The translations under genes and the position numbers were made by a program. Positions 1 to 53,898 of a stretch of 64,000 bases of DNA are shown in pieces (positions within the stretch are counted from its first letter, which is position 1; the number at the start of each line of letters is the position of its first letter). Under the pieces are notes generated by a model. It saw only the letters and a program-made list of their open reading frames with translations, did no database searches and was not told the origin of the DNA. Source of the DNA: an uncultured Alphaproteobacteria bacterium (GTDB lineage Bacteria; Pseudomonadota; Alphaproteobacteria; RF32; CAG-239). The DNA lies in contig CALYAX010000005.1 of the NCBI GenBank assembly GCA_944393665.1, positions 20,611-84,610 on the forward strand, given 5' to 3'.

Positions 1-367
1 TGTTTTCACTGCCACCTATCTCGGAACAAGGTTTTGAAAGGCATTCAACGGCTTTGCCGTCGCAAAGCTGTGATGAAAGTTGAAACTCCCCGTTGCAAGT
101 CGTTTCATCATATTGATATTCCGAAGGACAGACACAAGCCGTATAACAATACAGAACAGGATTTTCCCGGACGAGTTTCAATTCGCCGCCAAGGCGTTTC
201 GGGGATTCACAAGAAGGAGAATAACCGAAACATTCCATAGGCGCATCAATCCGGTGATTAAGGTCAGCATTATTTTTCAGATAATCAGGAAGCCAGTATA
301 TCCCTGCCTGCACCGGGAAGCTAACCGCTATCATAACCCAAAAACATAATTTTGAGATGTATCTCAT
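1..367 (-). CDS. N-terminal fragment (approx. 122 codons; gene continues beyond window start) of a 4th paralog of the secreted cysteine-rich repeat protein family (MRYISKLCFWVMIAVSFPVQA/GIYWLPDYLKNN...CVCPSEYQY...CDGK..EC)
   Basis: Manual minus-strand translation from ATG 365..367 is stop-free to position 1. It has a signal-peptide-like N-terminus followed by the GIYWLPDYLK(N/D)N motif and Cys spacing shared with the paralogs at 41401, 43907 and 46234. GGAG lies 7 nt upstream of the ATG and a TATAAT (plus 403..408, minus strand) lies upstream. It is not in the ORF track because no stop codon falls inside the window. Confidence 0.6.
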   Translation of the reverse strand, partial: MRYISKLCFWVMIAVSFPVQAGIYWLPDYLKNNADLNHRIDAPMECFGYSPSCESPKRLGGELKLVRENPVLYCYTACVCPSEYQYDETTCNGEFQLSSQLCDGKAVECLSKPCSEIGGSEN

Positions 368-34208: not shown

Positions 34209-34264
34209 ATTTTGTCCAAATTTGTGTTGCATTCGCAGGCAAGATAAATTATAATAAGCTTACT

Positions 34265-36250: not shown

Positions 36251-36267
36251 GCAAAGTGCACGGCAAA

Positions 36268-36302
36268 TAAAAAAAATGCGGCTTGCAGCCGCCGCATTTT
36301 TC
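36268..36302. terminator. Bidirectional rho-independent terminator between 34265..36250 (+) and mrp (-)
   Basis: AAAATGCGGC-ttgcagcc-GCCGCATTTT. Confidence 0.75.
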
Positions 36303-37298: not shown

Positions 37299-37394
37299 AA
37301 TTTGATGTCCTGTTGATATATCCTAACGATTATTGTTTTATGCTCATATTTATATTATATAATGGTGCAAAGCAATAGAAAAAAGAGGTTGAAA

Positions 37395-38447: not shown

Positions 38448-38449
38448 CC

Positions 38450-39328: not shown

Positions 39329-39333
39329 AGCCG

Positions 39334-40809
39334 ATGAAATATCTGATGACAGCCGCCGGTTTTGCAGCGGCATGGAGCCTGGCATTTTCTGCCGCAGCAC
39401 AAATGCTGGCAGAAGAAACTCCGGAAACCTCCGCAAATATTGAGGTCGTGAAATATCAGAGGCTGCCCTCGCTGGCGGATTTGGTGGAAAAACTGCAGCC
39501 GGCAGTGGTTAATATTTCTACCACCCATCAGCCGGGGAACGCCGAAGCCGATGAAAACATTCCGGGAATTGTCAGCGCCAATCCGGCAATCAGCGATTAT
39601 TTCAATCCGCACAACCCGCAGCAGCTGTCTTTGGGATCAGGCTTTATTATTGACAAGGACGGTTTTATTATCACCAACAATCATGTTATTGACGGTGCGG
39701 ACAGCATTGTTGTGACTTTGGCTGACAACAGCCAGTTTGACGCCGAACTGATTGGCCGGGACAGCAAAACAGACATTGCCCTGATTAAAATCAAAGCCGG
39801 AAAAGACCTTCCGACGGTTAAGCTTGGAAACTCGGATAAAATCCGTGTCGGCGACTGGATTGTTGCCATCGGAAATCCGTTTGGCCTCGGCGGGAGCGTT
39901 ACGGCCGGAATTGTTTCGGCAAAATCGCGGGATATTGAAGCCGGACCGTATGACAGCTTTATACAAACCGATGCCTCAATCAACCAGGGCAGTTCCGGCG
40001 GCCCGATGTTTAATATGGCCGGAGAGGTCATCGGTATTAATACCGCGATATTTTCAACCACCGGCGGGAATATGGGAATCGGCTTTGCAGTACCGATTAA
40101 CCTGACAGAGTTTGTCGTTAAGGAATTAAAGAGCAAAGGCAAAGTCGAGCGCGGCTGGATCGGGCTGAAAATACAGCCGAACACTTCGGATATTGCCGAC
40201 AGTCTGGGCCAGGACGAGCCTTACGGGGTGGTCATTTCGGCGGTGGAAGAAAATTCAGCAGCGCAGCAGGCAGGGATTGAAGCCGGCGATATTGTTACTT
40301 CTTTAAACGGCGAAACGATTACCGATGCCAGGGATTTTTCACGGCAAATTGCCGAAACCGCACCTGGAAGTTCTATCGAATTGAGCATTTGGCGCAACCG
40401 GCAGCAGCGTCAGGCCAAACTGCAGGTTATGAAAATGCCGGAAGAAAAAGCCGCTCCGGTTCAAACACCGGCAGCAACGGAAGAAAAGAAAAGCGGAACC
40501 GCCTTTATCACCGAAATCGGGATAGAAGCGGCAGAAATCAGTCCGGACATTATTCAGCGTTATCAGATTCCGGACGGACAGAGCGGTCTGGTTATTACCA
40601 AAGTTGACAGCGGCAGCGACGCCGAAATTAAAGGGCTGCGCGCCGGAAATCTGATTACCCAGATTGACAAGAAGGCCATCTATGACTTAAATGACCTGCG
40701 CACTTATTTAGATGAAGCCAAACAGGAGAATATGCGCCCGGTCCTGCTGCTGGTTTATGATCATGACCTCCCCCATTACGCAGCCGTAAAGTTAAAGAAA
40801 AATGACTAG
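39334..40809 (+). CDS. degP: periplasmic serine endoprotease DegP/HtrA family with two PDZ domains
   Basis: Catalytic triad context (H...D...GSSGGP) with two PDZ-like regions. Confidence 0.9.
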   Translation: MKYLMTAAGFAAAWSLAFSAAAQMLAEETPETSANIEVVKYQRLPSLADLVEKLQPAVVNISTTHQPGNAEADENIPGIVSANPAISDYFNPHNPQQLSLGSGFIIDKDGFIITNNHVIDGADSIVVTLADNSQFDAELIGRDSKTDIALIKIKAGKDLPTVKLGNSDKIRVGDWIVAIGNPFGLGGSVTAGIVSAKSRDIEAGPYDSFIQTDASINQGSSGGPMFNMAGEVIGINTAIFSTTGGNMGIGFAVPINLTEFVVKELKSKGKVERGWIGLKIQPNTSDIADSLGQDEPYGVVISAVEENSAAQQAGIEAGDIVTSLNGETITDARDFSRQIAETAPGSSIELSIWRNRQQRQAKLQVMKMPEEKAAPVQTPAATEEKKSGTAFITEIGIEAAEISPDIIQRYQIPDGQSGLVITKVDSGSDAEIKGLRAGNLITQIDKKAIYDLNDLRTYLDEAKQENMRPVLLLVYDHDLPHYAAVKLKKND

Positions 40810-41257
40810 AACAGACTTTTATCATTTACAGAGCCAGAATTTGGAAACCGTTTTGCCCAAACTGCTTGAAAAGGCTTACAGCACGGGAAAAAGCATTGTT
40901 GTCCGGGTGGGAACGGCAGAACGCGTTGAGTTTTTGAATGCGCTGCTGTGGACTTATAACGACCAGTCTTTTCTGCCGCACGGCTCATCAAAAGACGGCA
41001 ATGCCGAATTGCAGCCAATCTGGCTGACTTCCGGTTCCGACGTTCCCAATCTGGCCAGCCTGCTGTTTTTAGTGGACGGCGCCCGGGCGGACATGACGGA
41101 GCTGGAAAAGTTTGAACGTGTTTTTAATATTTTTGACGGCAATCTCCCGGAGGCCGTTGAACAGGCGCGGACTTTCTGGAAAGACCTGAAAGCTTCCGGA
41201 AACGAGTGCTTTTATTGGCAGCAGGATTCTTCCGGACGCTGGACGCAAAAAGCCTGA
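40802..41257 (+). CDS. holC: DNA polymerase III chi subunit
   Basis: 151 aa with DNA_pol3_chi-like N-terminus (TDFYHL...). Confidence 0.7.
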   Translation: MTRTDFYHLQSQNLETVLPKLLEKAYSTGKSIVVRVGTAERVEFLNALLWTYNDQSFLPHGSSKDGNAELQPIWLTSGSDVPNLASLLFLVDGARADMTELEKFERVFNIFDGNLPEAVEQARTFWKDLKASGNECFYWQQDSSGRWTQKA

Positions 41258-41307
41258 CCGTTTTATCTTAATCATCTCACCCTCCAAACGCACAATTCCG
41301 TTATTTA

Positions 41308-41336
41308 TTGAAAATTAATGTTTTTCATGTTATGAT
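41308..41336 (+). promoter_or_regulatory. sigma70-like promoter for the first cysteine-rich gene: TTGAAA - 17 nt - TATGAT
   Basis: Read directly. It is followed by a (GT)5 tract at 41341..41350 and a CAGGTACCTG palindrome at 41368..41377. Confidence 0.5.
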
Positions 41337-41400
41337 GTTGGTGTGTGTGTAGATCAGGTATCTATAACAGGTACCTGAATAAATTTATAGGTGGTGTGTG

Positions 41401-43764
41401 ATGTCTCAGCAAAAAAATTTTTGGCTGGCGTTAGCTGCATGTATCCTGCTGGGAGCAGGTACGGCAGCAGCCGGCATTTATTGGTTACCCGATTATTTAA
41501 AAGATAACGTAGATAGTAATCACCGGACGGATACCGATAAAGGTGGCGGCGACAATGTGGGCGGTACTTGCGAACAAACGTATGGACAGCTCAGCTCGTG
41601 CCCTTCCCCGAAAGTGATTGATAAAGAATACAACTATGGCAAAATAATGTGCTATAGCTGTAAGTGTCCCTCGTCCTATCAAATAACCTCCTGTTCTTCA
41701 GGCTGGCATGTTGCGGGGGTTCCGTGCAAAGAAGGAACCACCACCTATTATACCGGCTGCGAGGCGGATGCCTGCCCCGGCGGATTTACCGCGGGATTAA
41801 CCTGCGGCGCCGGTTATACCCGTGAAGTTAACGGAAAATCAGGTTCTCTGGATTGTGTCAGGTGCAATATTAAACCCTGTACCAGCGGTTATACGGCCGG
41901 CGTTGCCAATTGCAACAGCAAAACTTATCCTGCCGGATGGACATATGCCTCGTCCGGTTATTCAGGAGACAGTATCTGCGGGAAATGCACGGAAAAAACC
42001 TGCACTTCCGGATTTGAAAAAGGTTTGAACAACTGTTCCGGTAAAGCTCATGCCGAAGGCTGGACTTACAGCTCCTCCGGATATGCCGGAGACAGCGTCT
42101 GCGGCAAATGTACCGCCAAAACCTGTGCCTCAGGGTATCAGGCCGGCGTCAGCAATTGCTCCAGCACTGACAGCTGGACTTACAGCAGCAGCGGTTATGC
42201 AGGGGATTCCGTCTGCGGCCTTTGCACGGCCAAGTCCTGCGCCGACACATTTATTGCCGGTCTGGAAAACTGCAGCAACAAAGCTCATCCCAGCGGCTGG
42301 TCATATGTAAAAAGCCACAACAGCGGCAATACCGTATGCGGGAAATGCGATGTAAAAGCCTGTACCTCCGGTTCCACCAGCTGTGCCAGCGGCTTAATAC
42401 CGTCGGCCAACAGCTACTTTTCAGGCGACCAGCAATGTTATACCTGCCAAACCTGTGAAGAAATCGGCAAAAAAACCTGTAACGGCGGCTGTATTGCCAC
42501 ATCAGAGTGCTGCGGCGGCTGTGGCAGCGGAGAGGTTTGTAAAAACGGCACCTGCGTGGTTCAGACTTGTGAAAGCATTCTGACTGACCGCGGTTACGGT
42601 CTAAATACCAACCTGCCGAATAAAACCAATGTCATTATGAATGATATGACCTTTTCCAGAATGGAAGGCACAACTTACATCGGGATTGATAATTTTACCA
42701 GCATTTCACAATGCAGGGGAAAATCTCGTCCGAAACTGACATTTAATAAAGTCGGCAATCTTGACAATGCCAGCTTTACCAATCTGAATCTGTATATTAA
42801 AGCTTCAGACACCGGTAATATTGAAGTCAGAAACACGCTTACGCTCAAGAACACGGATGCGGACGTCACACCGACGACCATCAACATTCCGTCCGGGGCC
42901 GGCATTTCGATGACTGACTCAAAAATAGTGAAAAACGGCAGTGCCGCCAATACGCTTAATGACCGCGGATATATCTACTTCTACGGTACGTCGGAAGTTG
43001 GAAATGTCAATGTGTATGACTCCGGAAGAGCCGCATTTTATAAAAACGGCAAAGTCAATTCGATTACAACAAACGCCTCTTCTTCAAGTATCAGCGTCAG
43101 CAGCGGGGCCAAGTTGGAATCGACCGGGGCAATTACGATTACTTCCGGATCTTTGACGACAAGCGGAACCAGCAAATCCAACTCTAATATCAGCGGAAAA
43201 ACGTTAAGTGTTACGGGAACCCTGAAAGCTCCTTATACAAATATCAAATTGACCGACAACTTTATCGTCAACAAAAACGGCAGTTTTTCCGCCAACAATG
43301 CCTCGGTTACCGCAGCTTATGGAAAACTTTACAACGGAGCGTCAATTTCTATAGCCAATGCCGTTGATATGACATTCAAAAAGAAATTCTCCTGCGCTGT
43401 TTCTACAATAACGTTAGGAACTTGTGACTCTCTCAGCCCTGAGAATAACAATGATCACGGCATCTTCGCTTATGAATTTGAACTGGGACAGGTTGATGGC
43501 ACGGACAAGACCAGCAACACCCGTATTAATCTCTGCGGTGGTTCGAAGATGAGTTTTGTTACCGATACCAACACGTTAGCCAATTGCAGACTAAACCAGT
43601 ATAATAACGCCTCTATTTGTCTGGAATATTATGCCTGGTTTCAATGCAGCGGAAACGTTTCTCCCAATAATATGATGAACAGGGCTTTCATTGAGGGACA
43701 AACTGATTTTTCATGGTCAAATTGTCGCAAAAAATTCAAAGAAAGAAAAGATAAATGCAAGTAA
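41401..43764 (+). CDS. secreted cysteine-rich modular repeat protein, paralog 1 (787 aa): signal peptide, GIYWLPDYLK N-module, five ~41-aa A-type repeats (C.KC.AK.C..GY.AG..NC......GWTYSSSGYAGDS.CGKC), one 40-aa B-type 8-Cys module (CEEIGKKTCNGGCIATSECCGGCGSGEVCKNGTCVVQTCE), and an Asn/Ser/Thr-rich C-terminal region
   Basis: ORF with SD AGGTGG 6 nt before ATG 41401 and an own promoter and terminator. The repeat structure was read from the translation. Confidence 0.8.
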   Translation: MSQQKNFWLALAACILLGAGTAAAGIYWLPDYLKDNVDSNHRTDTDKGGGDNVGGTCEQTYGQLSSCPSPKVIDKEYNYGKIMCYSCKCPSSYQITSCSSGWHVAGVPCKEGTTTYYTGCEADACPGGFTAGLTCGAGYTREVNGKSGSLDCVRCNIKPCTSGYTAGVANCNSKTYPAGWTYASSGYSGDSICGKCTEKTCTSGFEKGLNNCSGKAHAEGWTYSSSGYAGDSVCGKCTAKTCASGYQAGVSNCSSTDSWTYSSSGYAGDSVCGLCTAKSCADTFIAGLENCSNKAHPSGWSYVKSHNSGNTVCGKCDVKACTSGSTSCASGLIPSANSYFSGDQQCYTCQTCEEIGKKTCNGGCIATSECCGGCGSGEVCKNGTCVVQTCESILTDRGYGLNTNLPNKTNVIMNDMTFSRMEGTTYIGIDNFTSISQCRGKSRPKLTFNKVGNLDNASFTNLNLYIKASDTGNIEVRNTLTLKNTDADVTPTTINIPSGAGISMTDSKIVKNGSAANTLNDRGYIYFYGTSEVGNVNVYDSGRAAFYKNGKVNSITTNASSSSISVSSGAKLESTGAITITSGSLTTSGTSKSNSNISGKTLSVTGTLKAPYTNIKLTDNFIVNKNGSFSANNASVTAAYGKLYNGASISIANAVDMTFKKKFSCAVSTITLGTCDSLSPENNNDHGIFAYEFELGQVDGTDKTSNTRINLCGGSKMSFVTDTNTLANCRLNQYNNASICLEYYAWFQCSGNVSPNNMMNRAFIEGQTDFSWSNCRKKFKERKDKCK

Positions 43765-43784
43765 AATAGCTTAACAGACAAAAC

Positions 43785-43816
43785 CTCCCCGGTGGCCTTT
43801 TCCGGGGAGTTTTTTG
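43785..43816 (+). terminator. Rho-independent terminator of paralog 1 (CTCCCCGG-loop-CCGGGGAG-T6)
   Basis: Read directly. It is duplicated at 46111..46142. Confidence 0.8.
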
Positions 43817-43839
43817 TGTCCAGCCCTCTAAACTATTTA

Positions 43840-43868
43840 TTGACTATCTTTGATTATTGATGTATTCT
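43840..43868 (+). promoter_or_regulatory. sigma70-like promoter for paralog 2: TTGACT - 17 nt - TATTCT
   Basis: Read directly. It is duplicated at 46167..46195. Confidence 0.5.
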
Positions 43869-43906
43869 GGAAGAAGTTCCGGAACAGCAATTATTGGAGA
43901 ACGGTC

Positions 43907-46090
43907 ATGAGAACAGTCTTTTTAGCCCTGGGTTTGCTAATCGCAAGCGCTTTGCCTGCTTACACCGCCTCTCCGCATAACACATACACACACAACACCG
44001 CCTTTGCTGTTTCAGAACAGTCTTACCGACTTGCCGGGATTTATTGGCTTCCGGATTATCTTAAGAATAATATCGATACCAATCGTCGTACAGATGTTGA
44101 CACCGGCGGTGGAGATATTCCGGTAGAATGCAAAAATTACGCGCCGGAATGTACATCGCCTCAAGTTCCCGGAGGTAAAACGGTGCGTATCAGCGATAAA
44201 TTCTGCCCTGTCGAATGCGTGTGTCCTGACAGTTACAAATACACATCGTCCAACTGCTCCGGAGACAAGAAACCTTCCGGCTCGGTTTGTGACGGCAAGT
44301 ATAACGACTGCCGCAGCCTGACTTGCGAAGAACGCGGTCTCAAAACCTGCGGATCCGCCTGTATCGCGGCTTCTGCCTGTTGCACGGATACGGACTGTGG
44401 CAGCGGCAAGAAATGCTCTTCCGGTTCCTGCATCGCCAAAAGTTGCGAGGAAATGGGGCAAAAAACCTGTAACGGAAGCTGTATCGCGGCTTCTGCCTGT
44501 TGCACGGATACGGACTGTGGCAGTGGCAAAAAATGTTCTTCCGGTTCCTGCATCGCCAAAAGTTGCGAGGAAATGGGACAAAAGACCTGTAACGGCAAGT
44601 GCATTGCCAAAACAGCCTGCTGTGTGAGCGGGGACTGTGCCAGCGGCATGAAATGCTTTGACAACATTTGCATTGCCCAAACCTGTGAAGAAAAAGGCTT
44701 AAAAACCTGTAACGGAAGCTGTATCGCGGTTTCTGCCTGTTGCATGGATACGGACTGCGGCAGTGGCAAAAAATGTTCTTCCGGTTCCTGTGTCGCTAAA
44801 AGCTGCGAGGAAATGGGTCAGAAAACCTGTAACAGCAAGTGCATTGCAAAAACTGCCTGCTGCACTGATACGGACTGCGGCAGCGGCAAGAAATGCCAAA
44901 ACGGATCCTGCGTAGATAGCCAGCCAAAATCAAAATGTTATGAAAAGCTTAAAGCTAAAGGTTATCTGGTAGCTGAAAACGGTGCCGAACTTGAAGCGAT
45001 TTTAAATCGCGCAGATACGCTTTCCCTGCCGGTTACTATTTATATTTTGGGAGATACTGTCATTGATAATTTTGAATTTTTCACCACCAATGGTGAAGTT
45101 TTTCCAATTCCGGTTATAAATTTGTACGATGCCTATAAAGCAGAAACAGACGGTTTGTGCTCTTTTAATGACGAAACTAATGACACCCGGATAAAGCTTC
45201 TGATGTCAAAATTAACTGTAAACAATAAATTCACCATGATGGGAATGTTATACAATTTTTTCCTTTCCTCTTTCCACATCAATATCTTTGATATTTTGTC
45301 CGGAGATGTTCATTTTTTTGATGCTGTCGGAAATTACGGCAGTGAGGCAACAATCAATAAACTGACAGAAAACTCCGGCGCTTTGTTTGGATCAACTGTT
45401 TATATTCAAGGTAAAGATGCCATATCCATGATTAATATTGACGAAATTATCAATGGAAACAGTTTAAATTTTAATTTGAATAATATCGCTTCGCTTACTG
45501 CTAATAAATTTATTGCGGAGGACTATGCACAGGCGCAGATTATAGCTGATAACGGTTTAGCAGACATCGGAACAATTACGCTTCCTAAACAAAATATATT
45601 TAATGTGACATTAAGCAACGAATCCCGGATGAGTGTGTCCAACATTACACCTCTAACAAAGACTAATTCAGCTTTTGACGTTATGATCAGAACGGGAAGT
45701 ATGTTTCGAGATGAAAGCGGAGCAGATGGTAAACCAATCGGAAATTATGTTTACCAGCCGGGAGTGACTTTCCATATGGAAATGAGCCGAAACTCCAACA
45801 ACAGCGACACAGGGAAGGCTTACAAGAATTGCATGACAACCTATACCTCTGTTGGCTATGAATCGTTTTGTACGCCAATAGCCGGCACCTATGCAGGAGG
45901 CTCTACTATTCCTGGAAATGCGATTCTTAATACCAGCTATAACACAACAAGCAGCTATTACGGAAATCCTCCGTGCACTTATAAAGATTGGAAACCGGCA
46001 TTTTCTGCAGATTTCAGTAATGTATTTAATACTGGAACGAATTATACGGCTTATTACAACTGTACTGTATACAATTTCTCAGCGTTGTAG
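43907..46090 (+). CDS. secreted cysteine-rich modular repeat protein, paralog 2 (727 aa): signal peptide, SPHNTYTHNTAF segment, GIYWLPDYLK N-module, five tandem 40-aa B-type 8-Cys modules (CEEMGQKTCNGSCIAASACCTDTDCGSGKKCSSGSCIAKS), and an Asn-rich C-terminal region
   Basis: Start chosen at MRTVFLALG (SD GGAGAA 43896..43901) by alignment with paralog 3. The ORF track start 43850 was rejected. Confidence 0.8.
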   Translation: MRTVFLALGLLIASALPAYTASPHNTYTHNTAFAVSEQSYRLAGIYWLPDYLKNNIDTNRRTDVDTGGGDIPVECKNYAPECTSPQVPGGKTVRISDKFCPVECVCPDSYKYTSSNCSGDKKPSGSVCDGKYNDCRSLTCEERGLKTCGSACIAASACCTDTDCGSGKKCSSGSCIAKSCEEMGQKTCNGSCIAASACCTDTDCGSGKKCSSGSCIAKSCEEMGQKTCNGKCIAKTACCVSGDCASGMKCFDNICIAQTCEEKGLKTCNGSCIAVSACCMDTDCGSGKKCSSGSCVAKSCEEMGQKTCNSKCIAKTACCTDTDCGSGKKCQNGSCVDSQPKSKCYEKLKAKGYLVAENGAELEAILNRADTLSLPVTIYILGDTVIDNFEFFTTNGEVFPIPVINLYDAYKAETDGLCSFNDETNDTRIKLLMSKLTVNNKFTMMGMLYNFFLSSFHINIFDILSGDVHFFDAVGNYGSEATINKLTENSGALFGSTVYIQGKDAISMINIDEIINGNSLNFNLNNIASLTANKFIAEDYAQAQIIADNGLADIGTITLPKQNIFNVTLSNESRMSVSNITPLTKTNSAFDVMIRTGSMFRDESGADGKPIGNYVYQPGVTFHMEMSRNSNNSDTGKAYKNCMTTYTSVGYESFCTPIAGTYAGGSTIPGNAILNTSYNTTSSYYGNPPCTYKDWKPAFSADFSNVFNTGTNYTAYYNCTVYNFSAL
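44324..44923 (+). repeat. Five in-frame tandem 120-bp coding repeats; copies 1 and 2 differ at only a few synonymous/near-synonymous sites
   Basis: Unit boundaries at 44324, 44444, 44564, 44684 and 44804, each beginning TGCGAGGAA/TGTGAAGAA (CEE). Confidence 0.9.
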
Positions 46091-46110
46091 AATCCTGTAA
46101 AAACTTCTAT

Positions 46111-46142
46111 CTCCCCGGTGGCCTTATCCGGGGAGTTTTTTT
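46111..46142 (+). terminator. Rho-independent terminator of paralog 2 (duplicate of the 43785 terminator)
   Basis: CTCCCCGG-tggccttat-CCGGGGAG-T7. Confidence 0.8.
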
Positions 46143-46166
46143 GTGTCCAGCCCTCTAAACTATTTA

Positions 46167-46195
46167 TTGACTATCTTTGGTTATTGATATATTCT
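46167..46195 (+). promoter_or_regulatory. sigma70-like promoter for paralog 3: TTGACT - 17 nt - TATTCT
   Basis: Read directly. Confidence 0.5.
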
Positions 46196-46233
46196 GGAAA
46201 TAGTTCCGGAACAGTAATTATTGGAGAATGGTC

Positions 46234-48589
46234 ATGAGAACAGTCTTTTTAGCCCTGGGTTTGTTTATTGCAAGCACTTTGCCTGCTCTTGCCGCCTCTC
46301 CGCATAACACATACACACACAACACCGCCTTTGCTGTTCCGGAACAGTCTTACCAACTCGCAGCAACCTGGTTCCTTCCCGACTGGCAGGCCGGGCTTGT
46401 TTCACGTACCGATACCGCTCCCGCCGGGTCCGGTGATCCTTCCCTTTCCGATTCCGCCTGCCTGACGACTTATAATCTCTTCTCCGCTTGTGTCGCTCCG
46501 CAGACCATCAAAAAGACATATAATTTCGGTAAGCTCACCTGTTATGACTGTGTCTGTCCCTCTTCTTATCAATATACTTCTTCCAACTGTTCAAACGGAT
46601 ATACGCTGGCCGGAGGGTCCTGCAACGGTAAATATCTCCAGTGCGATCCCTCGGCCTGTCCGTCAGGGTACACAGCCGGAAAGACCTGCGCCTCCGGTTA
46701 TGACCGTGAGGTGAACGGCAAATCCGGCTCCCAGGACTGTGCCAGATGCGTGGCCAAGGGCTGCCCCTCAGGCTATTCTGCAGGTTTGTCTAACTGCAAC
46801 GGGCAATCTTATACGGAGGGGTGGACCTATTCTTCCAACGGTTATGCCGGTAATAGTATCTGCGGCAAGTGCACCGCCAAGTCCTGTGCCCCGGGGGTAT
46901 ACTGCCGGGCTGGCCAACTGTAACGGACAGTCCCAGCCGTCGGGATGGACTTACAGTTCTAATGGGTATGCGGGAAACTCGGTCTGCGGGAAATGTACCG
47001 CCAAGTCCTGCCCGGCCGGATACAGCGCCGGGGTCACCCAGTGCAGCAACACCACAAGCTGGACCTATGGTTCCAACGGCTATGCCGGAAACAGTATCTG
47101 CGGCAAATGTACGTCCAAAGACTGTGCTTCGGGCTATACGGCGGGTTTAGCCAACTGTAACGGGAAAGCGCACCCGGCAGGATGGAGTTACACCGCCGGA
47201 ACGCCCAGCGGCAACACGGTTTGCGGCAAGTGCACCGCCAAAAGCTGCACGGCGGGGAGCACCAGCTGCAACAGCTCAACCCAGAACGCGACGGCCAACG
47301 GCTATTATGCAGGGGACAGTGTTTGTTACACCTGCGTCGCCAAGACCTGCGAACAAATGGGGCAGAAAACCTGCAACGGATCCTGTATTGCCACTTCCGA
47401 ATGCTGCGGCGGATGTCCTGCCGGGCACGAATGTAACGATGGAACCTGTATTCAGACAAAATGCGAGGCCGGGTATATTTTTTATTCCGACGGAACGTGT
47501 AATTCGGATTATTTAGCAGATAAGACTCCGGTCGGCATAGTGGCTGACCCTGAACACCGGCTTTTGATAGACTTAAAAGGAATTAATAATATTTCGTTAT
47601 TGGCGACAATAAGCAATATTAATATTCCGATGATAGGCAATGAATACACGCGTCCGATTTCATTTAACGGCTATTCCAATACAACAATTCTGGCAAGATA
47701 TACACCTGCTGCAACCACATGCCTGACCAAAAACCGTGACGGCATCATGAACAACTGGTATATTCCCGGCAGCGGGGAAATCCTTTCCGTTGGTAAAAAT
47801 TATCAGGCTGTTTATGCCGGACTGAATAAGCTGGCCGATTACGGCTTGGCAGACCCTAATCTGGGCTATTTATGGAGTTCCGATGAAGTATACAGCAGCG
47901 ATGAATTGGGACTGGTCATGAATCCGGCTGACCGTCAGTTAACTGCGAGACCGAGAATGGCAATGGCTGCCAATCTCCGCTGTATGGCCCATTATCTTTG
48001 CTCTGCCGCAAGCGGCTGTGAACTCCCCTGCCCGTTTGAATCTTCTGGTGACAGCAGTAACGGCGTGAATGGCTACACCAGGAAAAGTATTTCCTGCGAC
48101 GACGGATGGCTGGTCCAATCTTATCCGTTCAATTCCGCCTGCAAACGCTGTATCAATGATACCGTAGAAGGAAGCAGCAGCGGGGGAAACCAACCCGGCA
48201 AAACCGAATGTCAGGTTCTGGACTCAATGTATTATAGCAACGGTAAATATTTTTGTACTACCGCAGCCTCGGCTAATGGCACCTACATGGGAAAAATAGG
48301 AAAGAAAGGGCTGGTTATTTTGGGACAAATCGGTTCGACAATGTCTGTTTCCGATGCCGAGCAACAATGCAACAACTATACCAGAGGGACTTTCAGCAAC
48401 TGGCGGATTGTCTATACCAGCGACTCTGACAAATGGTCATCTATTATCTGCAATGTTTGCCACCCCTTTGGCAAAAGCGGCTCCCTATCAATGTATTACG
48501 GGGGTTACGGCTGGAATACCGCCACTTCTTATGACCGAAACGGCACTTTGTATTGTACGCATTCGTACAGCAATGTTTATCGGGAATAA
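46234..48589 (+). pseudogene. secreted cysteine-rich modular repeat protein, paralog 3 (~785 aa if read through), interrupted by a +1 frameshift in a C4G5 tract at 46889..46897. Its 5' end matches paralog 2 and its A-repeat/B-module body matches paralog 1, so it is chimeric.
   Basis: ORF 46228..46923 ends CTAKSCAPGVYCRAGQL* while the overlapping frame (46739..48589) continues PRGYTAGLANCNGQSQPSGWTYSSNGYAGNS... Removing one G from GGGGG restores ...SCAPGYTAGLANCNG... Confidence 0.75.
46893..46897 (+). repeat. G5 homopolymer (preceded by C4) at the frameshift point of paralog 3
   Basis: gcc ccggggg tat at 46888..46900. Confidence 0.9.
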
Positions 48590-48600
48590 GCTGTGGTGAG

Positions 48601-48628
48601 AAACGCCCCGGACTTAGCCGGGGCGTTT
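48601..48628. terminator. Bidirectional rho-independent terminator between paralog 3 (+) and the 48630..50261 gene (-)
   Basis: AAACGCCCCGG-acttag-CCGGGGCGTTT. Confidence 0.75.
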
Positions 48629-48629
48629 C

Positions 48630-50261
48630 TTATTTGGCAAGTTTTTCCAAATCGCTGGGAAAGTTGACATCAATAAATTTGTCAGTGTCTTTTTCTTCCA
48701 GCAGGGTCAGATAGTCGGAATGTTCAACGAAAACCGGACGGATATCGGCATTCTCAGGAACGATATCAGCCTGGGGATAAAGCGCCTTGCTCCATAAAAC
48801 CGGATTTTTCTTGACCCCCTGATGGGCAAACATAATCACTTGTTTTTCCGCACCGGGCCGGCAGGCATCAATCAGACGGTTTAAATCGTCAGCTTCAATG
48901 CCGGGCATATCGGCGGGCAGAAGAATCGCCCCGTCGCAAAAACCGGGAACAGAGGAAAGTCCCAATGCAATTGAGGTTTTAATACCTGAACGGTAGGCCG
49001 GATTGTAAATGACATTGATATCCAGATTTTCCAATTCCGCTGCCATTTCATCATCATGATAACCGGTTACCACAAAAACCGGACGGGCATTGGAAGCCAT
49101 CGCGGCCCGCACCGCCCGCATAAACAAAGGCTTTCCGTCTGGAAGCGGAACCATCAGCTTATTACGCCCGCTGCGGCTTCCTACTCCGGCGGCAAGAATC
49201 ACAGCTCCGACTGAAGCGGAAGCACCGCTGCGGGCAGACGGCGCCGGAGAAATCAAACGTGCGGCAGCCTCCGGATCAAGCAGTTGTCCCTGCGGTAATT
49301 CCGGCAAAGGGATACGGGTGAATTCTTCATGATTTAATTTTTCCGTCAACAGGGCTTTTTTGATACACCGGTTGATCAACCCGCTGTCAGCGGCGGCATA
49401 ATGATACGGCAGCACAATGATTTTGGTCTGGCGCTTCTCCGCAATCAGCAAATCTGAAGCACCAAATTGAGGCAAACGGGTCAACGACGGGCTGTCGGCA
49501 ATTTTGGCGATGGCCGTGGGAATAATATCCTGTAAACAAGACGTGCGAAGCGGTGAAAGAACAAAAACAACGTCCAACCGGGCACGGAGAGCCGTTTCAA
49601 GAGTATCGGCCACAGCGTCAACCGTGTACTCCGTATTATATTCCTGTAAAAAATCGAATCCGAATCCCTGAAAGTCTTTGACCAATTTTTTTACCATTGC
49701 CGTAAAGCGCCTGGTTTCGGCGGCAGTATTCTGCTGACGGCCGTAAATCAGCCCGGTACGGTATTGTCCCGGCTTAACAACGCTCAACAGTTCGGTATTA
49801 CCTGACAAACGAAAAACAATATCGTCAACCAGACTACTGCTGACAAAAGGAACAGTGAGTTCCAAAGAAGCAATGATTTCCCCGCTTTTTACAACCGCAA
49901 ATGACTCTATGGTGTTAAGCACCAGCAAATCATTAAAACGATTAAACTTCTGAACCCGGTCGGTAATCGTATAAAAAATGCCGTCTTCCGCAGCAACAAT
50001 TTTACAGACGTTATTATCAATAGCATAGGAAACACCCGCACCGCAAAGACGCGCGACAATCATCCCCAAAGCAGTAGCAGCGCTGAGGTCATCGTCTTCT
50101 ATTCTGGCGCCGAAGACGGTTTTGATGTCGTGCATTTTAAAAATGAGAATATCTTCCGCAGTCAGTTCATGGCCGGCAGGATAAACTTTTGCCCCAAGTT
50201 TGATTTCATTAAATAATCGGACCTGTTTAGCCTGACTGAGCGGAAATTCCTGATATTTCAT
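48630..50261 (-). CDS. two-domain protein: N-terminal ~330 aa (possibly a molybdopterin-binding-like domain) fused to a C-terminal MobA/MocA-like nucleotidyltransferase domain
   Basis: C-terminal AVILAAGVGSRSGRNK matches the MobA-like NTP_transf_3 signature. The N-terminal identity is uncertain. Confidence 0.5.
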   Translation of the reverse strand: MKYQEFPLSQAKQVRLFNEIKLGAKVYPAGHELTAEDILIFKMHDIKTVFGARIEDDDLSAATALGMIVARLCGAGVSYAIDNNVCKIVAAEDGIFYTITDRVQKFNRFNDLLVLNTIESFAVVKSGEIIASLELTVPFVSSSLVDDIVFRLSGNTELLSVVKPGQYRTGLIYGRQQNTAAETRRFTAMVKKLVKDFQGFGFDFLQEYNTEYTVDAVADTLETALRARLDVVFVLSPLRTSCLQDIIPTAIAKIADSPSLTRLPQFGASDLLIAEKRQTKIIVLPYHYAAADSGLINRCIKKALLTEKLNHEEFTRIPLPELPQGQLLDPEAAARLISPAPSARSGASASVGAVILAAGVGSRSGRNKLMVPLPDGKPLFMRAVRAAMASNARPVFVVTGYHDDEMAAELENLDINVIYNPAYRSGIKTSIALGLSSVPGFCDGAILLPADMPGIEADDLNRLIDACRPGAEKQVIMFAHQGVKKNPVLWSKALYPQADIVPENADIRPVFVEHSDYLTLLEEKDTDKFIDVNFPSDLEKLAK

Positions 50262-50343
50262 TCCGGTTACCCCTTTATTTTTGATATAAGGTTATTTTAG
50301 CAAAATGCCACCAAATAAAAAGTTAATTTTTTGCTCTTTAAAC

Positions 50344-50365
50344 AAAAAGGGAGCAAAAGCTCCCC
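50344..50365 (-). terminator. Rho-independent terminator for the small lipoprotein gene (GGGAGC-tttt-GCTCCC followed by a T-run on the minus strand)
   Basis: Read directly. Confidence 0.6.
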
Positions 50366-50366
50366 A

Positions 50367-50540
50367 TTAATCTTTTTTAATGATGTCCCTGGTATCTTTT
50401 ACCGTGCGGTGGACATCATAGGTGACACGTTCCAGTTTCTGGGTGGTGCGTAACGAAGCGTCCAAAACTTCTACCCAGGAACCACAAGAACTGAACAACC
50501 AAGCCAGCCCTATCAACAGAATAACTTTTTTTGTTTTCAT
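50367..50540 (-). CDS. small lipoprotein (57 aa: MKTKKVILLIGLAWLFSSCGSWVEVLDASLRTTQKLERVTYDVHRTVKDTRDIIKKD), absent from the ORF track (below the 60-aa cut-off)
   Basis: Manual translation. Signal peptide plus lipobox-like LFSSC with its own terminator. There is no obvious SD, which lowers confidence. Confidence 0.45.
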   Translation of the reverse strand: MKTKKVILLIGLAWLFSSCGSWVEVLDASLRTTQKLERVTYDVHRTVKDTRDIIKKD

Positions 50541-50708
50541 ATTTTTATTTTGAGATATCTATTTATAAGTAATTGAATTTTGTTTTGTAATCTAACATAG
50601 AAATTATTTCGTTTCAAGCTTTTAGACAAAAGAAAAATAAACTTTACCTGTTGACACGGCAAATAATTTAATTAGAGAGTAAGGTATTATTCCCTTTTAT
50701 GTGAAGAT

Positions 50709-50737
50709 GAAAAATGGGTTGCAATCTCTTGCAACCC
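50709..50737 (-). terminator. Rho-independent terminator of the rplM-rpsI operon
   Basis: GGGTTGCA-atctc-TGCAACCC followed by a T-run on the minus strand, 30 nt after the rpsI stop. Confidence 0.7.
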
Positions 50738-50769
50738 ATTGAAAATATTTGATATTTTTCTGATACCAA

Positions 50770-51270
50770 TTAACGTTTAGAGAACTGATAAGAACGGCGG
50801 GCTTTGGCGCGGCCATATTTCTTACGTTCTACCGTACGGTCATCACGGGTCAGGAAACCTGCTTTTTTCAAAACGGTGCGCAGTTCCGGCTCATATTCGT
50901 TCAGAGCTTTGGAGATACCGTGTTTGATGGCTCCGGCCTGACCGGACAATCCGCCGCCTTTTACCGTGCAGACAACATCAAATTCGTTGACGCGGTTAGA
51001 AATTTCAAACGGCTGATTGATAATCATTTTCAAAACCGGGCGGGCAAAATACTGATCAATCGATTTCTCGTTAATCGTAATATTACCTTTACCGGGTTTA
51101 ATCCAGACGCGGGCAACGGCATCTTTACGTTTTCCGGTGGCATACGAACGGCCGAACTTATCGCGTTTGGGTTTGTTTACAACAGTTTCGCTGTTGGCAG
51201 AAACGGCAGCTTTGGCAACTTTAGCCGAAGCGCTTTTCAGATCTTTCAAAGATTCAATTTTCTCAGCCAT
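50770..51270 (-). CDS. rpsI: 30S ribosomal protein S9
   Basis: Conserved C-terminus ...[10 protein letters not shown] with S9 signatures. Confidence 0.95.
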
Positions 51271-51737
51271 TACAGGGCGCTCCTCTTATTCTTGGGGTTC
51301 TTGGAAGCAATATCCAGAACTTCAGGGTTTTGAGCCGAATGAGGGTGATTCTCACCAGCATAAACTTTCAACTTGGTCATCTGCTGACGGCCCATCGGGT
51401 TGCGGGTAATCATGCGCTCAACAGCTTTCATGATAACGCGCTCCGGAAAACGGCCTTCCAAAATTTTAGCCGGGGTGGTTTCTTTAATTCCGCCGACCCA
51501 GCCGGTATGTTTATAATAAACTTTATCGGTGAGCTTTTTACCGGTCAGTTTAACTTTATCGGCATTGATAACAACAACATAGTCACCACAATCAAGGTTG
51601 GGAACGTAGTTGGGTTTGTGTTTGCCGCGCAGGATCTTGGAGATTTCTGCAGCCAGACGGCCGAGAACAACGCCCTGAGCATCAACAACATACCATTTTC
51701 TCTCAATGTCAGAGGGTTTGGTTGCATAAGTGTTCAT
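51270..51737 (-). CDS. rplM: 50S ribosomal protein L13
   Basis: 155 aa, [20 protein letters not shown]... typical of L13, overlapping rpsI by 1 nt. Confidence 0.95.
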
Positions 51738-51910
51738 ACTTTTCTCTCTTTTAAAAAGATGGTTAATGAATTCGGAAGTGACTATACATGAAATAATCCC
51801 AATGTCAACAACAAAATATCAGTAAATTTCAATCAGTTAATTGACGGTATTATTATACCGTTAGCCAACATATTGATTTTATTTATTTTTCATCAATTTA
51901 ATATAAAACA

Positions 51911-51939
51911 AAAAAAATAATTGATTTTTGTCTAATATC
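51911..51939 (+). promoter_or_regulatory. sigma70-like promoter TTGATT - 17 nt - TATACT for the 51984 gene
   Basis: Read directly. SD GGAGGG at 51972..51977. Confidence 0.5.
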
Positions 51940-51983
51940 TATTTATACTTAATTATATTCTGTTGTTTATCTGGAGGGAAATC

Positions 51984-53828
51984 ATGCCGGAAAATGATAT
52001 TTTTGAGGGAATTGGTTATCAGGATGTAAATGATTATCTGTCATCTGCAGTCAATATCCGTGAATCAAAAGTTTATCAGTTATTCAGCAATCTGCGCGAA
52101 GCCTCGCGCAATGCCGGGACTTTTGAAGAAGCCGAAAAGCTTGCGATTGGACTTAACCGGTTTGCCATGCAGCTTGATCCCAAAAATGAAAAACATCGCA
52201 ACTTTTATAATAATTTGGAAGGGGCTTTTATTGACAATCTTTCCAAAGAATTCAGGGAATGTTCTTTTTATGACAACTGCCCGACAGTTAATAAAATAAA
52301 TTATATCTTACTCTCCGGCTTTTCGACCTATACTAAACTGGCGCAAATATCTTCTTTGAATAAAATTCCGCCGCAATTGCAAGAAAATCTGCTGGCTGCG
52401 CCATACAGCACTTTTGAAAACACGCTCCCGTTTATTTACAATGCGGAATGTAATGATTCCCTGCGAAATAAAATTAATGATACCCTTGTTTACCAATCCA
52501 ATCACTCTGCCAATAACTTACTTGCAAATCTGAAAACTAAATTCCATAACTTTAAGACATTGAAAAAATTAGATGACAGTATTTTCAAGGAAAAGGTTAA
52601 AGAAATTCTGGAAAAAGATGCCTTGTTGTATAAGTTAACGCAGCATAACGGCGTACTCCCCGATACTTTATCCGGGCGCTTCGACTTGTTTTTAAAGACC
52701 GGCGATTTTCAAACGGACAAAACAACCCAAAGACTGGCAAACGAGCTCGCTTTTGCAGACATCCGCGACGGCAAAGCCGAAAAACTCGGGGCCGATAAAA
52801 TAGCCGTCCTGTTGGCAAGCGATGTTCATTTGGGATATTTAACCGAAAAAATCAGCCTTGAAAAGCTTAATCAAGTTTTTAACCATGCCAACAAACACGG
52901 TTTAAATATTGCCCGAACCGTCCGGGATAAATTTTTTAATCAGGAACTGGCTGCCGCAAAGGACTGGAATAAAATTTTGAACATGACCCGGTATAAAGAC
53001 GGCTGCAGCGGTTCCCGTTCATCAGTTAAAGACTATCAAACCCGCTTTGAGATTGCAGCACAGAAAATAACCGAAATAAAAAACAGCCAGGAATATGCCT
53101 TTATGACGGCTGATATTCAAGAATATGAAAAGAGGGCTGCCGGGTTGAAAGAAATATATGAAAACAGCAACCGTTTGTCCGGCTGTATCGGTTATCTGGA
53201 ACGGATTCAGGCACTGAGTGAAAATGTTTTAAAAAATTTCAGCTCACAGAAAGACGCCGGCCTCTCCGGAAAAGATCTGGAGAAAGCTGCCGGCAATGCC
53301 CTCAATAATAACTTTGAGCCGCTGGCGCACACAAACGCCAGGCTCCCTTTTCTGTTTGGCAGGAAAGAAGAAAAAAGACGCCAGCAAGCTTTGAACAACG
53401 CCGTTGATCAGTTTAACAAAATCCTCAAAGAACTTTCCGCCGACAAAAACGCAAACCGGCAGATTAAGAACACACTGTTAAGTTATTCAGGAAAGCTGCT
53501 TGAAAAATCTACCCTGGAAGCACTTAAAAACAGTTTTCAAGAAACACGGCAAGAGATCAACCGGAGAACGGATGACTTAAATTATATTGAGAAAAATTGG
53601 AATATACGCCAGAAAAAAATGACTCTTGAAGAAATCGCCGCTTCAGAAAAGGCGATAAGGCAAAATGCTGATGCTGCCGGTAAAGAAAAAGACCGCCGTT
53701 TGTCGGAAGCAAGAAACAGACTGAAAGAAAAAACCGGCATTGATACAGCGGAAGGCAAGTCTGGCGCCGTGAAAGCGGATAAAATTGCGGCGGAAGTTAT
53801 CCGCGCCAAGAAAAGCAACGGCAAATAG
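51984..53828 (+). CDS. hypothetical Lys/Asn-rich protein (614 aa from MPENDIFEG; ORF track gives 51963), AT-rich gene with no signal peptide
   Basis: Long ORF with its own promoter and terminator. Its composition is clearly lower in GC than its neighbours. Confidence 0.55.
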   Translation: MPENDIFEGIGYQDVNDYLSSAVNIRESKVYQLFSNLREASRNAGTFEEAEKLAIGLNRFAMQLDPKNEKHRNFYNNLEGAFIDNLSKEFRECSFYDNCPTVNKINYILLSGFSTYTKLAQISSLNKIPPQLQENLLAAPYSTFENTLPFIYNAECNDSLRNKINDTLVYQSNHSANNLLANLKTKFHNFKTLKKLDDSIFKEKVKEILEKDALLYKLTQHNGVLPDTLSGRFDLFLKTGDFQTDKTTQRLANELAFADIRDGKAEKLGADKIAVLLASDVHLGYLTEKISLEKLNQVFNHANKHGLNIARTVRDKFFNQELAAAKDWNKILNMTRYKDGCSGSRSSVKDYQTRFEIAAQKITEIKNSQEYAFMTADIQEYEKRAAGLKEIYENSNRLSGCIGYLERIQALSENVLKNFSSQKDAGLSGKDLEKAAGNALNNNFEPLAHTNARLPFLFGRKEEKRRQQALNNAVDQFNKILKELSADKNANRQIKNTLLSYSGKLLEKSTLEALKNSFQETRQEINRRTDDLNYIEKNWNIRQKKMTLEEIAASEKAIRQNADAAGKEKDRRLSEARNRLKEKTGIDTAEGKSGAVKADKIAAEVIRAKKSNGK

Positions 53829-53830
53829 AA

Positions 53831-53862
53831 TTATCCCCGGTTGTAAACCGGGGATAATTTTC
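53831..53862. terminator. Rho-independent terminator (TTATCCCCGGTT-gta-AACCGGGGATAA-TTTT) between the 51984 gene (+) and mutS (-)
   Basis: Read directly. Confidence 0.75.
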
Positions 53863-53898
53863 AATAACTTAACGCCCCTAAGTCATGACACTTTAGGT

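What the first reader, a model, noticed from the sequence alone, without database searches (positions are those of the whole stretch)
46110..46358. A ~250-bp duplicated terminator-promoter-5'-coding cassette, and paralog 3 as a chimera of paralogs 2 and 1
43785..44033 and 46110..46358 are about 93% identical direct repeats spanning the upstream gene's terminator hairpin, a TTGACT-17-TATTCT promoter, the 5'UTR and the first ~42 codons (signal peptide plus SPHNTYTHNTAF). Downstream of the repeat, paralog 3 abandons the paralog-2 sequence and follows the architecture of paralog 1: CVCPSSYQYTSSNC, then five A-type repeats, then one B module (CEQMGQKTCNGSCIATSECCGGCPAGHECNDGTCIQTKCE versus paralog 1's CEEIGKKTCNGGCIATSECCGGCGSGEVCKNGTCVVQTCE). 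This is the footprint of recombination or gene conversion between family members. The same homologous cassettes would also allow deletion or duplication of the intervening gene.
Basis: seen in the sequence. Interest (0 to 1): 0.65.

Follow-up and report, generated by a model that had tools for sequence, protein, structure and literature searches.

The report
Shared 5' cassette drives paralog shuffling
Two neighbouring genes for secreted cysteine-rich proteins in an uncultured gut bacterium carry the same ~250-bp start region, and related strains have gained or lost the gene between the two copies; this is an ordinary kind of gene-family recombination, seen here in a protein family nobody has described.

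Summary
The repeat is real. Window 43785-44033 and 46111-46358 are direct repeats, 91-92% identical (BLAST E 5e-85). Each holds a terminator hairpin, a TTGACT-17-TATTCT promoter, a 5'UTR and about 42 codons.

Strains about 99% identical in their flanks carry either p1-p2-p3 or p1-p3. The 2326-bp difference is bounded exactly by the repeat.

The family is mosaic, but p3 is not a recent p2 x p1 chimera.
- p3 and p1 share only 63% nucleotide identity.
- The body of p3 is closest to a paralog at another locus (85%).
- Its first 111 coding bases are closest to a different dispersed paralog (1 difference).
- Its N-terminal half is collinear with proteins of other species (67-70% identity).
- p2 is the patchwork gene, and the one that is variably present.

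In the window's clone p3 is a pseudogene: one extra G at 46893-46897, plus a nonsense mutation in a sister assembly.

Part of the cassette's conservation is functional. The promoter hexamers and a ~45-nt 5'UTR are nearly invariant across species. A palindrome pair, GTTCCGGAAC, 133 nt apart, predicts an mRNA fold that hides the ribosome-binding site. That fold is unproven.

Verdict: a new member of a known kind, in a family with no Pfam, NCBIfam or Rfam match.

The parts
43785..44033 (+). Cassette copy A: p1 terminator hairpin, promoter, 5'UTR and codons 1-42 of p2. Weaker similarity continues to 44055.
46111..46358 (+). Cassette copy B: p2 terminator hairpin, promoter, 5'UTR and codons 1-42 of p3. 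Weaker similarity continues to 46382.
43785..43815 (+). Intrinsic-terminator-like hairpin CTCCCCGG/TGGCCTTTT/CCGGGGAG plus T6, 21 nt after the p1 stop codon.
   Evidence: The same hairpin follows the p3 allele of L001.
46111..46142 (+). The same hairpin (loop TGGCCTTAT) plus T7, 21 nt after the p2 stop codon.
43840..43868 (+). Sigma-70-like promoter TTGACT-17-TATTCT of p2.
   Evidence: Hexamers and the 17-nt spacing are kept in L002, L003 and L015 while the spacer sequence differs.
46167..46195 (+). Sigma-70-like promoter TTGACT-17-TATTCT of p3.
43876..43885 (+). 5'UTR palindrome GTTCCGGAAC of p2. The coding partner is degenerate in p2 (TTTCAGAAC).
46203..46212 (+). 5'UTR palindrome GTTCCGGAAC of p3.
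46336..46345 (+). Second palindrome copy, inside p3 codons 35-38 (V-P-E), 133 nt from the first. It is the predicted partner in a long-range mRNA helix.
41401..43764 (+). Paralog 1, 787 aa. It has its own promoter and leader. Order: signal peptide, IYWLPDY motif, A repeats, one B module, Asn/Ser/Thr-rich C-terminal domain.
43907..46090 (+). Paralog 2, 727 aa: mosaic N-terminus, array of 40-aa B modules, unique C-terminal domain. Variably present among strains.
43785..46110 (+). The 2326-bp unit (one cassette copy plus the p2 body) that is absent from the two-gene strains L005 and L001.
44111..44239 (+). Block of p2 that is 93% identical to the dispersed paralog P0035g (L019 2982-3111).
44359..44896 (+). 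Tandem array of 120-nt (40-aa, 8-Cys) B modules in p2. L009 appears to carry one extra unit.
46234..48589 (+). Paralog 3, 784 aa when intact. It is a pseudogene in this window.
46893..46897 (+). G5 run causing a +1 frameshift. It is G4 in L005, L020 and L021.
46166..46728 (+). Cluster of 24 strain differences (window versus L021/L005) inside an otherwise near-identical 11-kb region. Probably short conversion tracts.
46572..47433 (+). p3 A-repeat and B-module block, 85% identical to the paralog P0004g at another locus (L023). The L001 allele diverges to an unrelated C-terminal domain at 47433; L022 starts to differ at 47104 and loses all similarity at 47433.
1..367 (-). Fourth family member (MRYISKLCFWVMIAVSFPVQAGIYWLPDYLKNN...), cut off by the window edge. 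It has a different leader.

Best explanation
p1, p2 and p3 belong to a multigene family of secreted, cysteine-rich, modular proteins in an uncultured gut alphaproteobacterium. Most family members start with a common 5' module: a sigma-70 promoter, a nearly invariant 45-nt 5'UTR, a signal peptide and a His/Thr-rich N-terminal segment. At this locus the module, together with the terminator hairpin of the gene upstream, is present twice in direct orientation.

Homologous recombination between the two copies removes or adds the 2326-bp unit that holds p2. The same kind of exchange, with paralogs at other loci and at the conserved B module, produces mosaic genes and swaps C-terminal domains.

Shown:
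- the repeat itself;
- the two-gene and three-gene haplotypes, whose difference is bounded by the repeat;
- the mosaic blocks;
- the clustering of strain differences in the cassette;
- inactivation of p3 in this clone.

Inferred:
- that RecA-type recombination is the mechanism;
- the direction of the event, meaning loss or gain of p2;
- that the proteins are surface-exposed or secreted and under diversifying selection.
For: - The repeat is significant: E 5e-85.
- L005, a 76-kb contig from an independent sample, equals window 31398-44027 joined to 46111-56098. Its single cassette has the A-type hairpin side. From 46166 onward it is identical to the B copy of the three-gene strain L021. That places the junction in the 30-nt interval 43811-43840 / 46137-46166.
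- L001, another MAG, also has p1 followed by a p3-type gene.
- Across window 40000-51000, strains W (the window), L005, L007/L021 and L008 (L008 only as far as the end of p1, where its contig stops) are essentially identical. The exceptions are the p2 indel, 24 substitutions clustered in 46166-46728, the frameshift, and isolated single-base differences. Further upstream the strains differ by about 1%.
- Mosaic map: p2/p3/P0035g/par5 share -92..+130 at 84-92%; p2-P0035g share +205..+333 at 93%; p3-P0004g share +339..+1200 at 85%.
- dS over the first 37 codons is 0.04-0.2 among three of the cassette-bearing paralogs of this species (p2, p3, P0035g), 0.16-0.29 to a fourth (par5), about 0.4-0.7 to genes of other species, and above 1 to P0004g, a paralog of the same species.
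- The L001 allele replaces the p3 C-terminal domain in place, with both flanks conserved.
- No member has a Pfam or NCBIfam match.
Against: - Every comparison rests on short-read metagenome assemblies or MAGs. No read-level or long-read support could be checked.
- Many contigs break at the cassette or in the B-module array (L008, L011-L014, L009, L010). The region is clearly hard to assemble.
- Two contigs (L020, L022) show joins that could be assembly chimeras.
- Part of the cassette identity reflects functional constraint. The 5'UTR and promoter hexamers are conserved across species, so identity alone overstates recent exchange.
- Whether p2 was lost or gained cannot be decided.
Confidence: 0.8

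Rival explanations
1. The cassette is alike in p2 and p3 mainly because its nucleotide sequence is functionally constrained, not because of recent recombination. The constraint would be a promoter plus a structured mRNA leader or paired operator sites. On this view the ~250-nt block is a regulatory unit whose 3' edge is the second palindrome.
For: - The -35 and -10 hexamers, the 17-nt spacing and the 45-nt 5'UTR are nearly invariant in L002, L003, L015 and L023, at unrelated loci and in other species.
- In about 370 kb of loci, GTTCCGGAAC is, with one exception (L018 2871), confined to the 5' ends of family genes. There it occurs as a pair 133-134 nt apart, or as the 5'UTR copy alone in the p2 and P0004g types.
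- RNAalifold predicts a 15-bp closing helix plus pairing of the SD and AUG with codons 16-24.
- 93.9% of cells are paired, against 37-47% when the partners are slid.
- MFE z-scores are -2.6 to -4.2 in four leaders.
- The high-identity block ends just 3' of that helix.
Against: - No compensatory double changes were seen, and the covariation score equals the shuffled control.
- The P0004g leader does not fold this way (z -1.1).
- Constraint does not explain the shared terminator hairpin, which the dispersed paralogs lack.
- It does not explain the near-zero dS within the genome against 0.4-0.7 between species, the p2 indel bounded by the repeat, or the 93% and 85% blocks outside the cassette.
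- It therefore complements recombination rather than replacing it.
Confidence: 0.3
2. p3 is a recent chimera made by joining the 5' end of p2 to the body of p1.
For: - p3 shares 92% identity with p2 over the cassette.
- It shares the A-repeat and B-module architecture with p1 at 56% aa identity.
Against: - p1 and p3 are 63% identical in nucleotides.
- Closer relatives exist for both halves: P0035g for the leader (1 difference in 111 nt) and P0004g for the body (85%).
- The complete p3 N-terminal architecture is collinear with P0003 and P0005 in other species.
Confidence: 0.05
3. The repeat, or the two-gene versus three-gene difference, is an assembly artefact: a duplicated or collapsed repeat.
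For: - Contigs often end at the cassette or in the B array.
- Coverage is low, 3-7x, in several contigs.
- L022 and L020 show suspicious joins.
Against: - Copies A and B differ at about 8% of sites and have unrelated left flanks.
- Each junction is seen in several independent assemblies.
- The two-gene form appears in two unrelated datasets with different alleles (L005, L001).
- The longest exact match between A and B at the junction is only about 30-43 nt. That is shorter than the final k-mers of common assemblers. This last point is my own knowledge and was not tested here.
Confidence: 0.05

Closest known systems
Helicobacter pylori bab paralogs (babA/babB/babC chimeras formed by gene conversion)
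   Same: Paralogous genes for exported proteins share conserved 5' and 3' segments. Intragenomic recombination in the 5' region, about 60-240 bp from the start codon, creates chimeric genes and changes which gene sits at which locus. Strains differ in gene content (PMC4552749).
   Different: - The bab genes encode outer-membrane adhesins at dispersed loci, and their on/off switching uses CT dinucleotide repeats.
- Here the proteins are unrelated Cys-rich modular proteins.
- Here two copies are in tandem.
- Here the shared block also includes the upstream terminator, the promoter and the 5'UTR.
- No long simple-sequence repeat is present here.
Bartonella quintana vomp tandem array (variably expressed outer-membrane proteins)
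   Same: It is an alphaproteobacterial tandem array of paralogs with a conserved 5' region. Isolates differ by deletion of one or more genes of the array (PMC10936683).
   Different: - The Vomps are trimeric autotransporter adhesins of a pathogen, and the deletions were observed during infection.
- Here the family has no recognisable domain.
- Here the host is an uncultured gut organism.
- Here the variation is inferred from metagenome assemblies.
Mycoplasma variable lipoprotein families (vsp/vlp/vsa). Named from my own knowledge; not checked in a paper here.
   Same: Family members share a highly conserved 5' non-coding region and signal-peptide-coding sequence, followed by variable repetitive bodies.
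   Different: - Those systems switch by site-specific inversion or by promoter homopolymer slippage, and they encode lipoproteins.
- No recombinase, invertible element or lipobox is seen here.
SD-sequestering mRNA leaders such as RNA thermometers or translational-operator hairpins. Named from my own knowledge.
   Same: The predicted fold pairs the Shine-Dalgarno sequence and the start codon with downstream sequence.
   Different: - Here the anti-SD lies inside the coding region (codons 16-24).
- The fold is closed by a 133-nt long-range helix made of two palindromes.
- There is no Rfam match and no covariation yet.

Membership tests
Direct-repeat-mediated (homologous recombination) gene loss or gain | Two copies in direct orientation whose identity is far above that of the surrounding paralogous sequence | tested here: met
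   92% over 248 nt, against unalignable or at most 69% sequence on either side
Direct-repeat-mediated (homologous recombination) gene loss or gain | Natural variants that differ by exactly one repeat copy plus the intervening DNA, with a hybrid single copy | tested here: met
   L005 and L001 lack 2326 bp. L005's cassette has the A-type hairpin side on the left and is identical to L021's B copy on the right.
Direct-repeat-mediated (homologous recombination) gene loss or gain | Both arrangements verified at read level or in closed genomes | not testable with these tools
   Only assembled contigs were available.
Rho-independent terminator | GC-rich stem followed by a U-tract, just downstream of a stop codon | tested here: met
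   An 8-bp stem with 7 G-C pairs, a 9-nt loop and T6-7, 21 nt after the stop codons. dG -16 to -20 kcal/mol, z about -3. The simple scan missed it because its loop limit is 8 nt.
Sigma-70 promoter | -35 and -10 hexamers with 16-18 nt spacing, conserved in orthologous and paralogous positions | tested here: met
   TTGACT-17-TATTCT matches 9 of 12 consensus positions. Hexamers and spacing are kept in L002, L003 and L015 with divergent spacers. No TSS data exist.
Simple-sequence-repeat phase-variable (contingency) gene | A long homopolymer or short tandem repeat in the coding region or promoter whose length toggles the reading frame | tested here: not met
   The frameshift sits in a run of only G4/G5. 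A sister assembly adds a TGG>TGA nonsense mutation at 47062, which points to decay rather than reversible switching.
Pfam PF07603 (DUF1566 / Lcl C-terminal domain), considered for the p3 C-terminal domain | A significant match to the Pfam model | tested here: not met
   No Pfam hit at E <= 0.1. Some relatives 28-31% identical to the p3 C-terminal domain carry PF07603. The AF2 model has pLDDT 66.6 and gives no significant Foldseek hit, only weak C-type-lectin-like matches.
LDL-receptor class A-like repeat, considered for the B modules | A match to the family model and its six-cysteine pattern | tested here: inconclusive
   No Pfam hit. One weak PDB sequence hit to LRP1 CR56, E 3e-4. The B modules have 8 Cys per 40 aa.
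Any Rfam cis-regulatory leader | A covariance-model match | tested here: not met
   No match in 41200-48700 apart from two sub-threshold hits at the terminator downstream of p3.

The most novel reading that the evidence does not exclude
The cassette is more than a recombination handle. It would be an undescribed cis-regulatory leader shared by a whole family of secreted proteins in gut Alphaproteobacteria.

In this reading two GTTCCGGAAC palindromes 133 nt apart, one at the 5' end of the transcript and one in codons 35-38, close a fold that pairs the Shine-Dalgarno sequence and the AUG with codons 16-24. Translation or mRNA stability of all family members would then be controlled together.

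Because selection keeps this roughly 150-nt element nearly identical at the nucleotide level, it would also supply the homology that lets gene bodies be exchanged, deleted and inserted between loci. An alternative is that the palindromes are paired operator sites for one regulator.
Probability: 0.3. Interest if true: 0.6.

Novelty: new member of a known kind. Interest (0 to 1): 0.42.

Why it matters
- It shows gene-content and mosaic variation in an exported-protein family of an uncultured gut alphaproteobacterium. The strains are otherwise identical across this locus and about 99% identical in the flanks further out. Variation of this kind is usually documented in pathogens.
- The family has no Pfam, NCBIfam or Rfam match. 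Its conserved N-terminal [YW][WF]LPD[YW] motif and common leader mark a co-regulated, probably host- or phage-facing set of proteins.
- The cassettes and the B-module arrays break short-read assemblies, so these loci are systematically fragmented in MAGs.
- If the leader fold is real, it is a new regulatory RNA motif with a clear experimental test.

Tried and rejected
- Genome contigs, two scans: the 21-nt leader pattern and the p1 protein. Neither found a relative, so the species could not be named and no GTDB representative could be compared.
- Metagenome-contig scan with the leader pattern: three loci, of which only L015 is a family member.
- Pfam and NCBIfam on all three proteins: nothing.
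- PDB sequence search: one weak LDLR-A-like hit for the p2 B modules.
- AlphaFold model of the p3 C-terminal domain: mean pLDDT 66.6, no significant Foldseek hit in the PDB.
- Rfam: nothing for the leader.
- A short hairpin confined to the 5'UTR was predicted but overlaps the -10 box and shows no covariation. I replaced it with the long-range model.
- Literature search for the family: nothing relevant.
- SSR-type phase variation of p3: considered and rejected, because the run is only G4/G5 and a second disabling mutation exists.
- Deciding whether p2 was lost or gained: the site patterns fit both, so this stays open.
- I ran no further search on p2. It would not have changed the verdict.
Full report
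**The observation**

The repeat finder and blastn both recover the repeat. Window 43785-44055 aligns with 46111-46382 at 89.0% over 272 nt, E 5e-85. The core is 92.3% identical over 248 nt.

Each copy has the following parts, read from the sequence.
- It begins 21 nt after a stop codon, that of p1 or p2, with the hairpin CTCCCCGG-N9-CCGGGGAG and a T-run. The hairpin folds at -16 to -20 kcal/mol.
- TTGACT-17-TATTCT follows.
- Next comes a 5'UTR with GGAG.
- The ATG is at 43907 in copy A and 46234 in copy B.
- About 42 codons follow, encoding a signal peptide and SPHNTYTHNTAFAV(S/P)EQSY.

Identity collapses after about +125..+150. Beyond that point p2 continues like p1 (IYWLPDYLK..., 69% nt). 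p3 continues as WFLPDWQAG..., then the A repeats and one B module. That stretch is 56% identical in amino acids and 63% in nucleotides to p1.

p3 is frameshifted by an extra G in CCCCGGGGG at 46893-46897.

**Context**

The three genes lie between hflK/hflC-htrA-holC and a convergent nucleotidyltransferase-family gene, followed by rpsI and rplM. A fourth family member is cut off at the window start.

No protein matches Pfam or NCBIfam. Homologues come from gut metagenomes and MAGs. One distant relative is labelled 'Alphaproteobacteria bacterium', and one locus is titled human gut metagenome.

**Other strains**

Exact-protein look-ups gave many contigs of the same species, about 99% identical in the flanks.
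- Three-gene haplotypes: the window, L006 and L024 (GCA_964316525.1), L007 and L021 (one sample, p3 intact), and L009 and L010.
- Two-gene haplotypes: L005, which equals window 31398-44027 joined to 46111-56098 and has p3 intact at 784 aa, and L001.

The single cassette in L005 has the A-type hairpin side. From 46166 onward it is identical to L021's B copy. The junction therefore lies in 43811-43840 / 46137-46166.

Within window 40000-51000 these strains (L008 only as far as the end of p1, where its contig stops) are otherwise essentially identical. The differences are the 2326-bp p2 indel, 24 substitutions clustered in 46166-46728, the frameshift, and isolated single-base differences. Change at this locus is therefore concentrated in and next to the cassette.

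**Mosaic structure**

Two dispersed paralogs of the same species carry the cassette from about -92 to +130 or +204 at 84-92% identity. They are P0035g and a fifth gene, both on L018 and L019. They have different terminator hairpins.

The other shared blocks are these.
- p2 shares +205..+333 with P0035g at 93%.
- p3 shares +339..+1200 with P0004g at 85%. P0004g lies at a secDF-linked locus, L023.
- p3 differs from P0035g at 1 of its first 111 coding bases.
- Over these first 37 codons, dS is 0.04-0.2 among p2, p3 and P0035g and 0.16-0.29 to par5. It is about 0.4-0.7 to genes of other species, and above 1 to P0004g.

The p3 N-terminal half is collinear with P0003 (70%) and P0005 (67%) at unrelated loci in other genomes. 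So recombination in the family is well supported, p2 is the patchwork, and p3 is not a recent p2 x p1 product.

A second exchange point lies at the B module.
- The L001 allele is 95% identical to p3 up to 47433. It then carries an unrelated C-terminal domain, followed by the family hairpin and the normal downstream gene.
- C-terminal domain types recur in different combinations across the family.

**p3 in this clone**

The G5 frameshift is present in the window, in L022 and in L024. L024 adds a TGG>TGA change at 47062. This looks like decay of the gene, not reversible phase variation.

**Functional constraint and a possible leader structure**

The promoter hexamers, their 17-nt spacing and the 45-nt 5'UTR are almost invariant in L002, L003, L015 and L023, while the spacers and the signal-peptide codons diverge.

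With one exception (L018 2871), GTTCCGGAAC is found only at the 5' ends of these genes. It occurs as a pair 133-134 nt apart, or as the 5'UTR copy alone in the p2 and P0004g types.

RNAalifold pairs the two palindromes. It also pairs the SD and AUG with codons 16-24. The support is as follows.
- 93.9% of cells are paired, against 37-47% when the partners are slid.
- There are no compensatory double changes.
- MFE z-scores are -2.6 to -4.2 in four leaders and -1.1 in P0004g.
- Rfam has nothing.

I treat this as a plausible but unproven contributor to the cassette's conservation.

**Comparison and verdict**

The behaviour matches well-known paralog families that share conserved 5' ends.
- H. pylori bab genes form chimeras by gene conversion in the 5' region (PMC4552749).
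- B. quintana vomp arrays lose genes by deletion (PMC10936683).

It is a new member of that kind, in an uncharacterised protein family. All comparative evidence comes from short-read assemblies. Two contigs, L020 and L022, show joins that may be chimeric.

Noticed in passing
L020 (ERZ28573083 scaffold_1204) versus window 44372-56000: The contig is about 100% identical to the window across the p2 C-terminus and p3 (44600-48600). It is only 74-81% identical (200-nt bins) from about 48800 on, and 80-85% further downstream. The break lies at the bidirectional terminator after p3. This is either a recent transfer of the p2-p3 block between species or a chimeric metagenome contig.
   Followed up: partly
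L022 (ERZ24773224 NODE_3212) versus window 45054-47433 and L023: The contig is identical to the window up to 47103, including the frameshift. It then switches to the P0004 paralog and that paralog's downstream genes (flavin reductase, OMP beta-barrels). This is either an inter-locus recombinant or an assembly chimera at 3.7x coverage.
   Followed up: partly
window 41470-41490, 44036-44056 and 46363-46383, and most homologues: A motif [YW][WF]LPD[YW] follows the signal peptide, or a 20-30-aa His/Thr-rich segment, in nearly all family members, including distant ones such as AKICFLPD and ATWWLPDW. It may be an N-terminal sorting or processing signal. I know of no described equivalent.
   Followed up: no
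window 44359-44896; L009 10297-10743: The 120-nt B-module array of p2 behaves like a VNTR. L009 encodes three identical SCEEMGQKTCNGSCIAASACC... modules where the window has two. This lies at a contig end, so it needs confirmation.
   Followed up: partly
window 46228-46236: A C>T change in copy B (GAACGGTCATG to GAATGGTCATG) creates an in-frame upstream ATG two codons before the conserved start. This is why the ORF list begins p3 at 46228.
   Followed up: no
window 41341-41350: A (GT)5 tract lies immediately downstream of the promoter-like TTGAAA-17-TATGAT of p1. It is short and was not compared between strains beyond the finding that the region is identical in four of them.
   Followed up: no
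window 50726-53500 (621-aa ORF at 51963-53828, no Pfam family recorded for its counterparts in related contigs): L024 is identical to the window from 46499 to 50725 apart from one base. Most of its 103 differences then accumulate after 50726, the majority of those inspected lying within the 621-aa ORF. This suggests strain-level recombination tracts or a fast-evolving gene.
   Followed up: no
L001 5879-5915; window 43785-43815 and 46111-46142: The same terminator hairpin (CTCCCCGGTGGCCTTATCCGGGGAG plus a T-run) follows p1, p2 and the alternative p3 allele of L001. It does not follow the window's p3 or the dispersed paralogs. It may be a shared 3' boundary of exchangeable gene units.
   Followed up: partly
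L008 12385-12504: A strain about 99% identical in its flanks has a third version of the region downstream of the p1 hairpin. The -35 region and spacer are diverged and the -10 is TATAAT, but the 5'UTR is intact. The contig ends there.
   Followed up: no
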